This document shows, piece by piece, positions 27,144 through 36,463 of a stretch of DNA of 64,000 nt. Every line of letters begins with the position of its first letter. Position 1 is the first letter of the stretch. A program made the position numbers and the translations under genes. The notes below the pieces were generated by a model, which searched no databases, had not been told where the DNA came from, and saw nothing but the letters and a program-made list of their open reading frames with translations. The DNA comes from Escherichia coli. GTDB lineage: Bacteria; Pseudomonadota; Gammaproteobacteria; Enterobacterales; Enterobacteriaceae. The stretch lies in NCBI RefSeq assembly GCF_013315695.1, contig NZ_CP054353.1; one strand, 5' to 3'.

Positions 27144-27920
27144 TCACCAGTCAAAACTTTTCACCAGCGTCAGCTCGCCAGCATTACGCATCGGTACAAT
27201 AAATGTTTCCTGTTTCTCATTGACCGATCCTTCATCGGTGATCAGCGTCAGTTGGGCGGTGGTTAATTCCGTTTCGCTGCGTCCGCCATAGTAGTTGATA
27301 TACACCTGATAGCGCCCGTGAACTGGCGCTGGCATGGCGAAAATCTCGGGGCCGTACCCCGTCGTGACATCCATATCCAGTGCGCCACTGTTGTTCAGCA
27401 CGGTGTTACCGTACCAGGCGTGTTCGCCATCGGGCGTAACAACGTGAAGGTCGAGGTCGGTATTGTCCGTATCCCACGAGAGAACCAGCCGTAAACGTGC
27501 ACGAATCGTTCCTGTACCCGGCGTTGAGTAAAACTGCATTTTTTGCCGGCTTTGCCCATCCGGGCTGATGACCTGCACGCTGTTGCTGCCTTCAGTGAAA
27601 ATATAAGGGCGTGCAAATGAACCATCGGATTCAATTCTCTGCGGCATACTGGCACCGTTGACCACCAGCCGGCCCTGCTGAACTTTACCCGCCGCAGCAT
27701 AATTCTTTATTTTGCCGCGGATCTGCGCTGAGATATTTTGATCATCTGCCATGTTGACGGACGACGCCGGGTAATTGATCGATTGTGAAAAACTGGCATC
27801 TTCGCCCTCTGCCGGATGCCAGCCAGAGAGCGGTGCATCAATCTCGACTTCCTGCACACCTTCACTGTGAGCGACAGGCGAAAGCGCCACCAGTAACAAC
27901 GGAAGAAAAATCTTTCGCAT
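27144..27920 (-). CDS. yfaP: YfaP, secreted DUF2135-type protein of the alpha-2-macroglobulin gene cluster
   Basis: 258-aa ORF with signal peptide; synteny with yfaQ-yfaS-yfaT-yfaA. Confidence 0.75.
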   Translation of the reverse strand: MRKIFLPLLLVALSPVAHSEGVQEVEIDAPLSGWHPAEGEDASFSQSINYPASSVNMADDQNISAQIRGKIKNYAAAGKVQQGRLVVNGASMPQRIESDGSFARPYIFTEGSNSVQVISPDGQSRQKMQFYSTPGTGTIRARLRLVLSWDTDNTDLDLHVVTPDGEHAWYGNTVLNNSGALDMDVTTGYGPEIFAMPAPVHGRYQVYINYYGGRSETELTTAQLTLITDEGSVNEKQETFIVPMRNAGELTLVKSFDW

Positions 27921-27924
27921 AGCA

Positions 27925-29574
27925 TTAGTCCATTAATAATTGTCGGGTCAGCGTTTCGATATAGTTCTCATCAAGCCCGGTGGGATAACCATCAAAGGCC
28001 AGGTGCAGATACTCATGGGTTAAATCCAGCCGATCCTGAAGCGTAAAGAAGTTACGAATAAACAGCCGTTTCTGCTGCCGATCGGTATAGGGGAAACCTG
28101 AGACTAAACGACAGACCGCAAACACGTCTGGTTCGTTGTAGCCCGTCTCGCCTTGCAATATACGCCGCCACTGCGGCATTTTTTTCGCCAGCCAGGCTTT
28201 CGCTTTGGGTAATAACTGACAGGTTGAGCGTGGCGCTCCCCAGCGGCTAAGGCTGTTGTCGGGATAAGCAAACGCGAGTATCTGGTCGTAACGCTCTCCC
28301 TGCCCCGCCTGGGCCGTGGCTTGCCGCCAGGAAAGCGTCCCTTCGGTAGCGCGACTGCCGTGATAATGAACCGGATCGCCCGCATAGATAAGATCCTGCG
28401 TCCAGGCGGTCATCGTTCGCGCCCCCGTGGTAGCTGGCGAAGCCGAAACACGCTGTGTGGCGCTGCTGTCAGGGATGGTCAGGCAATCGCCTTCCCGATT
28501 GGCGTTTTGCTGTAAAAAAGTGCGTATCGCCACGGTCATGGCTTTCGCTGCCTCAGGGGGCGTACTTTTCGCCTCGCGATCCAGAACTCTGGCAACATAC
28601 TCTTCACGATCGAGATGCGACTGCAATTTCAGTTTGCCCTTTTCGCTCAGTAAGGTCGTCTCACCGTGGCTGACAAACGTAATGTGGTTACCATTGGCGA
28701 ACGTCACACGATAGCGCCCATTAAGTACGCCGGGTTTTACTGCCGTCGTACTCTTTTCCGCTGCGATTTTCTTCAGCGGATAGCGGGCAAACAGCTCCAC
28801 CTCTACACATTGCCCACTGGCAACCTGCGTCGGCACTGGCAAAACCCGATTAAGCACCGTCGCATAACGGGTCAGTACCGTTTTGCTGGTGCCACTGCCA
28901 GTCACCCACAGCGGTGTACCATCGGTTAACCAGCCAGCAAAACCACCCTGACGGATTTCCTGTTTATCATCGGCAAACCAGCTCCAGGTTTTCACCCGTA
29001 CCCGACTACCGAGCATAGATGCGACACCGATTTTCGCCTCGTCCAGCACCACATCCAGTAAGACTTCCTGAGCTTTGTTTTGCGCGGGTAACGTCGCTAA
29101 TGAATCAAGCAGTGATTTAACCGTTACCGAGGTTTCTGGCTTCAGCGTAGTAAGAGACGCTAACCACGCAGGTGCCTGACGCTGTTGCCAGTATTGCCCC
29201 CACACATCTGCGCCAATATGCAACCGCTGCGGCGCAAAATAGAGCCCACAGGAACGTACCAGCGCGATATCGCGCGTTATGCTCTCCCCTGCCTGACAAC
29301 AATAAACCTCTTCCGGGGAGTTTCCGCGACACTGGTAGGGCTGCTCCGGTTGATGGGTATCCTCCAGCCAGGCGTAAACATACAGTTTCCATAAACTCCC
29401 TAACGGCGTGGTGAGCGTGTCAGGTAATGCTGAGACTTTGGTCACGCCTGATGACGACAGCTGATACAGTTGATCGTGCTGCGCGCCCCGCAGCGCCAGT
29501 TGTAACGGCGTCTCCTCCGCAAGCGTTGGCAGAGTAACCAACGCTAATAGCCAGACGATTCTGCGCCAGTTCAC
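27925..29574 (-). CDS. yfaQ: YfaQ, secreted DUF2300-type protein
   Basis: 549-aa ORF with signal peptide; synteny. Confidence 0.75.
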   Translation of the reverse strand: MNWRRIVWLLALVTLPTLAEETPLQLALRGAQHDQLYQLSSSGVTKVSALPDTLTTPLGSLWKLYVYAWLEDTHQPEQPYQCRGNSPEEVYCCQAGESITRDIALVRSCGLYFAPQRLHIGADVWGQYWQQRQAPAWLASLTTLKPETSVTVKSLLDSLATLPAQNKAQEVLLDVVLDEAKIGVASMLGSRVRVKTWSWFADDKQEIRQGGFAGWLTDGTPLWVTGSGTSKTVLTRYATVLNRVLPVPTQVASGQCVEVELFARYPLKKIAAEKSTTAVKPGVLNGRYRVTFANGNHITFVSHGETTLLSEKGKLKLQSHLDREEYVARVLDREAKSTPPEAAKAMTVAIRTFLQQNANREGDCLTIPDSSATQRVSASPATTGARTMTAWTQDLIYAGDPVHYHGSRATEGTLSWRQATAQAGQGERYDQILAFAYPDNSLSRWGAPRSTCQLLPKAKAWLAKKMPQWRRILQGETGYNEPDVFAVCRLVSGFPYTDRQQKRLFIRNFFTLQDRLDLTHEYLHLAFDGYPTGLDENYIETLTRQLLMD

Positions 29575-34194: not shown

Positions 34195-34763
34195 GTCATA
34201 AGTTGTTGCAGACTGACTGCGCGCATTCCGTTGTCAGTTTTCGTGGCGCTTCCGGTGTGGTAGATGACGTAACGCCCCATCCAGACCATTAAGTGCTGGG
34301 CATCGCCCTGATCGAAAAAAATCATATCGCCAGGCAGCGCCTGGTTTATGTCCTGGCCAATAAATTGGCTGTTGTACTGAATCAAATTAATCGCGGTCAC
34401 ATAGGGGCCGGTTTTTCCATTCCCCTGATTCCAGTTTTGCGCCAGTTGACGCTGTTCAGGTGTTAGCGTCATTTCAGGCGGCAAATACTGACTTGCTATA
34501 CCGTTACTTTTTAGCCATTTGCTGTCGTGAATTTTCAGCGCCTCGTTCGCCGCAAATCGCACCAGGCCCGCACAATCCTGCTGATACCAGCGTGGACTTG
34601 GACCCTGGCGGAGCTGTTCTTGTGCAATGCGTACAAACCAGGCGCGAAACAGCCCGGATTGTTCGACATTCAACATTTCGCTATGGGCAACAACACAACA
34701 CAGCCAGCAAATCAGCGCCAGCAGCCCGTGCCTCATAGTGGCTGCCAGGTAATGGGTAGCCAC
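34113..34763 (-). CDS. yfaT: YfaT, DUF1175-type secreted protein
   Basis: 216-aa ORF with signal peptide; overlaps yfaA and yfaS ends (tight operon). Confidence 0.7.
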
Positions 34764-36463
34764 TGCCAGGCGGCACCGGGTTCCATCTGGGCCAGCTTCA
34801 TGACATAACGCGGTTGTTGAGATAAAGCGTCCAGCTTCGGCATTAATAAAGTTTGTGCGGCATTATAAAAAACCGGTTCGAGATTCTTCGGCAAACTGGT
34901 CAGCGTTTCGTTACGCAGCAGTTTCGCCACGCCTTGTGGATTGATATAGAGCGGAACGATGCCGTCAGTGGGTATCACATCCACCATTGCCGGGCGGGTT
35001 TTATTCAGTGTTTGCAGGGCGTTATTAACCAGCGTGTCATCGAGGGAGAAAAGCAGCGTTTTGTTTTGCATCGCCAGCGACACGCGGAAAAAATAATCCG
35101 ACATTAATTGATCGGGTTGCGCCGCCTGCGCTTTCGGATACTGACCGTATCGGGAACTCACTTCGCGACGCCAGATTTGCGCTTCGCCCTGCTGCGTCTG
35201 GGTTACTGGCAATATACCTTCTGCCGCTTTGCTTTCGTGCGCACCAATATTTTGCGTAAACAGTTTTCCTGGCAATTGCACTTGTTCGGCAGAACCATCA
35301 AACTGACCGACAAACAGCGGAGTTTGCAATTTTGAATCTTCATACCAGCACAGCCCCGCAGCACCGTCTAACGCCCCGTTGAGCTTGTCGTTTTCCTGGC
35401 TGATGTGGGAAAGCATCTCTTCAGCAATACCATGTGAATAAGGCACCGCCACACAGAAGCTGGCCCCTGCAGGCATACTGTTCCATACCGGCGTAAAATC
35501 GAAACTGGCATCTACGCTTGCGGATTCATCATTTAACGCCAGAAAACTGTGCCAGCCGTCGTTGCTCATTTCGAAGCGCACACCAGCAAAAGAAGGCATT
35601 AATCGCTGGTAGCCAAAACCCAGCAAATTTGCACTGACCACGATGCGCTGGCGTACTGGCGTTTTTTCGGCAGTACGCTCTTCCAGACCAAAACTGGTTT
35701 CCCAGCGTTTCTTACCACTTAACAAATCACTTGCGATTGCCGCGGCTTCGGTATCCTGCTGGTCATCTTTAAACAGCATGTCCGTGCTGGAAAACACCAG
35801 CATCTTGTCCTGATAAGTTGCGAACATCAGGGCGTTATTGCCGTTATAGCGCAACTGATAAACCGGGATGGTTTCACTATTTAGCTTAATACTACTGATT
35901 TCCGTTTTACTTAACTGGCTGTCGCTGGTAGCGGCAAACAGCAATGGCTCCAGCAGCTTGCTTAAACCACTTCGCTGGATCAGCACCATATAATGAGAAA
36001 GATGGCCTTGTTTATCGTGCCATAGCGCCGCCTGCGCGGGCTGATCTAAGAGTGACGAAAAGAGCTTATCTTTTAGTGTGAGATCGTGTTCGTAGACAAT
36101 GCGGCGAATGCTGCCTTCAATGCCCAGACGATCGGCATGATTCTGATAATAGAAAACGAAATCTTCACTCAGAACATCGTGGAGAAACGGAATGGTAAGG
36201 AGGTCTTTGGGAAGCTGGCTCAGAGAGTCGCTGTCGAGAAAGAGGTCCGGCTCATTGAGATCGATTTGCAGATTGTTGTGCACCACCAGCGGCGACAACG
36301 TTTTTTCTGGCCCACTGCCAGCATATTGCAACGCCCAGACGCCAGCGGAAAGCAGTACTATTGCGCCCAAACCTACAAGACCATAGAACCGCCAGCCTTT
36401 CGCCTTTTTTTCACCACTCATTGCCACATTCCTTGTGTAAAGCCAGCCATTTTTTACGAGCAC
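34733..36463 (-). CDS. yfaA: YfaA, DUF2138-type protein with N-terminal membrane anchor
   Basis: 576-aa ORF; first gene of yfaATSQP cluster downstream of gyrA. Confidence 0.75.

What the first reader, a model, noticed from the sequence alone, without database searches (positions are those of the whole stretch)
27144..36463. Intact five-gene alpha-2-macroglobulin-like cluster yfaA-yfaT-yfaS-yfaQ-yfaP
yfaS is one uninterrupted 1539-aa ORF here, whereas I recall it as a split pseudogene in K-12 MG1655. It is embedded in a tightly packed operon (31-bp and 82-bp coding overlaps, 0 to 4 bp gaps) with four signal-peptide proteins of unknown function. No CxEQ thioester motif is present in the translation, consistent with the thioester-less bacterial alpha-2-macroglobulin type. 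The cluster is a plausible periplasmic protease-trapping or envelope-defence system whose mechanism and partner roles remain poorly defined.
Basis: partly seen in the sequence, partly recalled or inferred. Interest (0 to 1): 0.5.

Follow-up and report, generated by a model that had tools for sequence, protein, structure and literature searches.

The report
E. coli thioester-less macroglobulin (Mag-type) operon
This is the ordinary, intact E. coli copy of a known periplasmic "type II alpha-2-macroglobulin" defence operon; the broken copy in laboratory strain K-12 is the exception, caused by a single stop codon, and one partner protein is predicted to carry two cell-wall-enzyme folds not described in the papers I could search.

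Summary
Five same-strand genes, yfaA-yfaT-yfaS-yfaQ-yfaP, lie between gyrA and atoB, and yfaS is one uninterrupted ORF. K-12 yfaS is an annotated pseudogene. Its lesion is one in-frame TGG->TGA at codon 1368, with no frameshift or split.

Being intact is the norm. The cluster matches in 5425 of 5426 complete E. coli genomes. The K-12 stop allele is in 364 genomes and the TGG allele in at least 5009.

The cluster is the E. coli counterpart of the Pseudomonas aeruginosa magABCDEF operon, without magA. YfaT matches the MagC crystal structure (E 3e-103). Gene order is colinear in all 80 species loci fetched.

The thioester is truly absent: ECAM's C-L-E-Q aligns to G-V-I-N. All five genes have dN/dS of 0.02-0.10.

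Corrections:
- The 31-bp overlap is a longest-ORF artefact; the real one is a 4-bp ATGA.
- The yfaT/yfaS overlap is probably real but 67 bp. Escherichia changed the ancestral ATGA start to ATA.
- YfaA carries a membrane anchor rather than a clear cleavable signal peptide.

Added value: YfaQ (MagE) is predicted to combine a class-D beta-lactamase/PBP-like domain with a SpoIID-like lytic transglycosylase domain. That links the operon to peptidoglycan.

Verdict: already known and ordinary.

The parts
34733..36421 (-). yfaA (MagB counterpart), 562 aa from the ATG at 36421 (longest ORF reaches 36463). DUF2138. N-terminal transmembrane helix, then non-enzymatic alpha/beta scaffold domains.
34113..34736 (-). 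yfaT (MagC counterpart), 207 aa, DUF1175, NlpC/P60-like. Its ATG overlaps the yfaA stop as ATGA. The putative triad Cys55 (34572-34574), His148 (34293-34295) and His160 (34257-34259) is invariant.
   Evidence: PDB 7bk8_A MagC, E 3.4e-103 over residues 21-206. Pfam DUF1175 E 3e-58 and NLPC_P60 E 9e-4. Invariant columns in 25 sequences. Coordinates checked.
29575..34179 (-). yfaS (MagD counterpart), type II alpha-2-macroglobulin, 1534 aa from the ATG at 34179 (ORF open from 34194). Uninterrupted in this window.
   Evidence: ORF. Pfam domains in 1539-aa numbering: MG2 349-445, A2M_BRD 666-811, A2M 876-958, bMG10 about 1414-1522. Global hhalign to E. coli YfhM/ECAM, probability 99.3%. 53-56% identity to Pseudomonas homologues over the full length.
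34177..34190 (-). Probable yfaS initiation site inside yfaT: Shine-Dalgarno AAGGA (34186-34190), 6 nt, then ATG (34177-34179).
   Evidence: Sequence and coordinates. Only 16 codons (Ala28-Ala43) separate the yfaT stop from the mature N-terminus DDSLPSSNY, so an upstream start is needed for a signal peptide.
34113..34116 (-). Remnant of the ancestral yfaS start. ATAG here (ATA codon plus the yfaT TAG stop), where 66 of 78 related loci have ATGA (magD ATG overlapping the magC TGA).
   Evidence: Survey of the junction codon in 78 loci. Escherichia and Superficieibacter have ATA.
30964..30975 (-). Vestigial thioester position. G-V-I-N (residues 1069-1072, K-12 numbering) aligns with C-L-E-Q of ECAM. 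The type II family consensus is G-V-E-Q.
   Evidence: hhalign of the YfaS family profile against Yfh[11 protein letters not shown] aligned to PYGCLEQTAS. Coordinates checked.
31558..31626 (-). Bait-region-equivalent segment [23 protein letters not shown] (residues 852-874, K-12 numbering). Almost invariant from Escherichia to Pseudomonas.
   Evidence: Invariant columns N852 R853 R856 V858 K859 L861-E867 V869-A872 W874. It aligns to the region after the bait-region domain of ECAM. Coordinates checked.
30076..30078 (-). Codon 1368 (K-12 numbering). TGG (Trp) here, TGA in K-12. This is the only lesion that makes K-12 yfaS a pseudogene. It lies just before the C-terminal bMG10 domain.
   Evidence: Indel-free alignment and codon comparison. 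Allele counts: 364 genomes with TGA, at least 5009 with TGG.
27925..29574 (-). yfaQ (MagE counterpart), 549 aa. Predicted class-D beta-lactamase/PBP-like domain (about residues 24-245) with SLWK (29386-29397) and KTW (28984-28992). SpoIID-like lytic-transglycosylase domain with Glu334 (28573-28575). C-terminal HEYLH (28003-28017). Eight invariant Cys.
27144..27920 (-). yfaP (MagF counterpart), 258 aa, cleavable-looking signal peptide, C-terminal DUF2135. A 4-nt gap follows yfaQ.
   Evidence: ORF. Pfam DUF2135, E 6e-17. 50-58% identity to the downstream Pseudomonas paralogue and 37-45% to the upstream (MagA) one.
36533..36550 (-). Terminator-like hairpin just after gyrA, upstream of yfaA. No consensus sigma-70 promoter was found in the 148-nt gyrA-yfaA spacer.
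   Evidence: Scan and sequence.
27083..27104 (.). GC-rich hairpin between the convergent atoB and yfaP genes, with T runs on both sides. Probable bidirectional terminator marking the operon's 3' end.
   Evidence: Scan and sequence.

Best explanation
The region is the intact E. coli version of the type II (thioester-less) bacterial alpha-2-macroglobulin operon. It is orthologous to P. aeruginosa magBCDEF and lacks the first gene, magA.

Most likely working model:
1. The five proteins are made from one translationally coupled operon and exported to the periplasm.
2. YfaA (MagB-like) anchors the complex in the inner membrane through one N-terminal helix and stabilises YfaS.
3. YfaS (MagD-like) is a multi-MG-domain trap. 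When its bait segment is cut, it changes shape and holds the attacking enzyme non-covalently, because the thioester Cys and Gln are gone.
4. YfaP (MagF-like) binds YfaS as an accessory subunit.
5. YfaT (MagC-like, NlpC/P60 fold) and YfaQ (MagE-like) tie the complex to peptidoglycan. YfaQ is predicted here to carry a penicillin-binding/class-D-beta-lactamase-like domain and a SpoIID-like lytic-transglycosylase domain.
6. The system as a whole guards the cell wall and periplasm against incoming hydrolases, such as proteases and peptidoglycan-targeting type VI effectors.

Shown by experiment, in Pseudomonas only:
- periplasmic and inner-membrane location
- MagA, MagB and MagF binding to MagD
- non-covalent trapping of a protease
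- dependence of MagD stability on MagB and MagE
- protection against VgrG3 and Tae1

Shown here by computation:
- orthology and synteny
- loss of the thioester at the homologous position
- intactness of the cluster and purifying selection on it
- the nature and frequency of the K-12 lesion
- the domain predictions for YfaQ, YfaT and YfaA

Inferred only: that the E. coli complex assembles and acts in the same way, and that YfaQ and YfaT act on or bind peptidoglycan in E. coli.
For: Synteny and orthology:
- The five genes are colinear with homologues in all 80 species loci fetched. Loci not cut by a contig end hold the whole set. Pseudomonas and Methylobacter add one upstream YfaP paralogue.
- YfaT matches the MagC crystal structure 7bk8, E 3.4e-103.
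- Pfam families are DUF2138, DUF1175, A2M domains, DUF2300 and DUF2135. The size pattern fits Table 2 of PMC3735191.

Thioester: ECAM's CLEQ aligns to GVIN in a global alignment with probability 99.3%. No CxEQ motif is present.

Functionality in natural strains:
- dN/dS is 0.02-0.10 for all five genes.
- The region matches in 5425 of 5426 genomes, with full-length coverage in 5178.

K-12 lesion: one TGA codon, found in 364 genomes.

Peptidoglycan link:
- SxxK, KTW and the SpoIID-type Glu are invariant.
- The YfaT Cys-His-His triad is invariant.

Literature: mechanism and phenotypes of the Mag system.
Against: - No experiment on the E. coli proteins was found in the searchable literature.
- No consensus promoter was detected upstream of yfaA, so expression conditions are unknown.
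- E. coli lacks MagA, a direct MagD partner in Pseudomonas.
- MagE was reported as cytoplasmic and not stably in the complex, and MagC was not detected in the fractions. That sits badly with a periplasmic peptidoglycan role, although eight invariant Cys in YfaQ suggest an oxidising compartment.
- DUF1175 is described as catalytically inactive (PMC10318531).
- VgrG3 is a glycan hydrolase, not a protease, so classical bait-cleavage trapping cannot explain all the protection.
- The bait-equivalent segment is nearly invariant, unlike the variable baits of broad-spectrum macroglobulins.
- The cluster decays repeatedly: the K-12 stop, an E. albertii yfaA stop, and an IS insertion in yfaQ. It is therefore dispensable in some settings.
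Confidence: 0.85

Rival explanations
1. The E. coli cluster is a silent or decaying relic. It is kept by linkage next to gyrA but no longer works as a defence system, and the intact ORFs reflect recent ancestry only.
For: Independent inactivations occur: the K-12 yfaS stop, an E. albertii type-strain yfaA stop, an IS5-family insertion in yfaQ of strain 23AR1101, and partial or complete loss in strains War and 19KM1831. No consensus promoter was found upstream. MagA is absent. The ancestral yfaS start codon is lost.
Against: dN/dS is 0.02-0.10 in all five genes, even across species (E. whittamii, E. albertii; dS up to 0.87). 5178 of 5426 genomes keep the whole region. Catalytic-type motifs in YfaQ and YfaT are invariant. 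A good Shine-Dalgarno plus ATG replaces the lost start.
Confidence: 0.07
2. The system is primarily a peptidoglycan surveillance or repair machine, not a protease inhibitor. YfaQ (PBP-like plus SpoIID-like) and YfaT (NlpC/P60-like) do the chemistry on damaged cell wall. YfaS serves as a large scaffold or shield, and its cleavage at the conserved segment is an internal activation step, possibly carried out by the invariant HExxH site of YfaQ.
For: YfaQ folds and motifs. The invariant HEYLH...DE...E motif. The near-invariant bait-equivalent segment in YfaS. Deleting magE alters MagD processing, and MagD is cleaved from 165 to 100 kDa in vivo without an added protease. The mag operon protects against peptidoglycan-targeting effectors, including a non-protease. 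Type I macroglobulins are paired with the cell-wall synthase PBP1c.
Against: MagD does trap TEV protease after cleavage of an engineered bait. MagE was found in the cytoplasm, and MagC and MagE did not form stable complexes with MagD. The KTG motif is KTW and the middle SxN motif is uncertain. Sequence-level alignment to FtsI or TEM-1 is not significant. Whether the HExxH belongs to a peptidase fold could not be determined.
Confidence: 0.3
3. The long ORF hides an assembly or sequencing error, and yfaS is not really intact in this isolate.
For: None found.
Against: The window is 100% identical over 9601 bases to the complete chromosome of strain MSB1_4I, where the gene is annotated as intact. 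The ORF aligns codon for codon with K-12 without indels, and with homologues from 78 species loci over the full length.
Confidence: 0.01

Closest known systems
Pseudomonas aeruginosa Mag complex (magABCDEF, PA4492-PA4487), the type II bacterial alpha-2-macroglobulin system
   Same: Same gene order and orientation for the five shared genes. MagD-type macroglobulin without thioester. MagC orthologue about 80% identical to the 7bk8 structure. MagB-type anchor with one N-terminal helix. Tightly coupled genes. The same mechanism is presumed: an inner-membrane-tethered, non-covalent trap.
   Different: E. coli and the other Enterobacterales loci lack magA, the upstream DUF2135 paralogue. The vestigial GVEQ of the family has degenerated further to GVIN. 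The ancestral ATGA start of the macroglobulin gene is lost and replaced by an upstream ATG, giving a 67-nt overlap and a long leader. RsmA/Gac regulation is known only for Pseudomonas. Nothing has been tested in E. coli.
Type I bacterial alpha-2-macroglobulin (E. coli YfhM/ECAM, Salmonella Sa-A2M) with PBP1c
   Same: Homologous multi-MG-domain architecture alignable end to end (hhalign probability 99.3%), with a bait-region domain and a C-terminal bMG10. Periplasmic envelope defence. Genetic coupling to a peptidoglycan enzyme: pbpC next to yfhM, and a PBP-like/SpoIID-like YfaQ here.
   Different: ECAM has CLEQ at 1187-1190 and a lipoprotein signal (MKKLRVAACMLMLALAGC), and works alone by covalent capture. 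YfaS has no thioester, only about 21% identity, and depends on four partner genes. phmmer against PDB sequences does not even retrieve ECAM.
Eukaryotic alpha-2-macroglobulin / complement C3-C5 / CD109 (thioester-containing proteins)
   Same: MG2, bait-region and A2M domains are recognised by Pfam. The only direct PDB sequence hits are CD109 and C5, at the MG2-MG3 region.
   Different: Very distant (E about 1e-3). No thioester. Monomeric periplasmic protein in a membrane-anchored complex.
Class D beta-lactamases, BlaR1/MecR1 sensor domains and PBP transpeptidase domains (for the YfaQ N-terminal domain)
   Different: About 12% identity. No significant sequence-level match. The third motif is KTW, not KTG. 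The SxN/SxV equivalent is uncertain (candidate S108-C-G). Acylation has not been tested.
SpoIID / SleC-type lytic transglycosylases (for the YfaQ central domain)
   Different: Found in a Gram-negative periplasmic protein fused to a PBP-like domain. Only part of the SpoIID fold is matched. Activity is untested.

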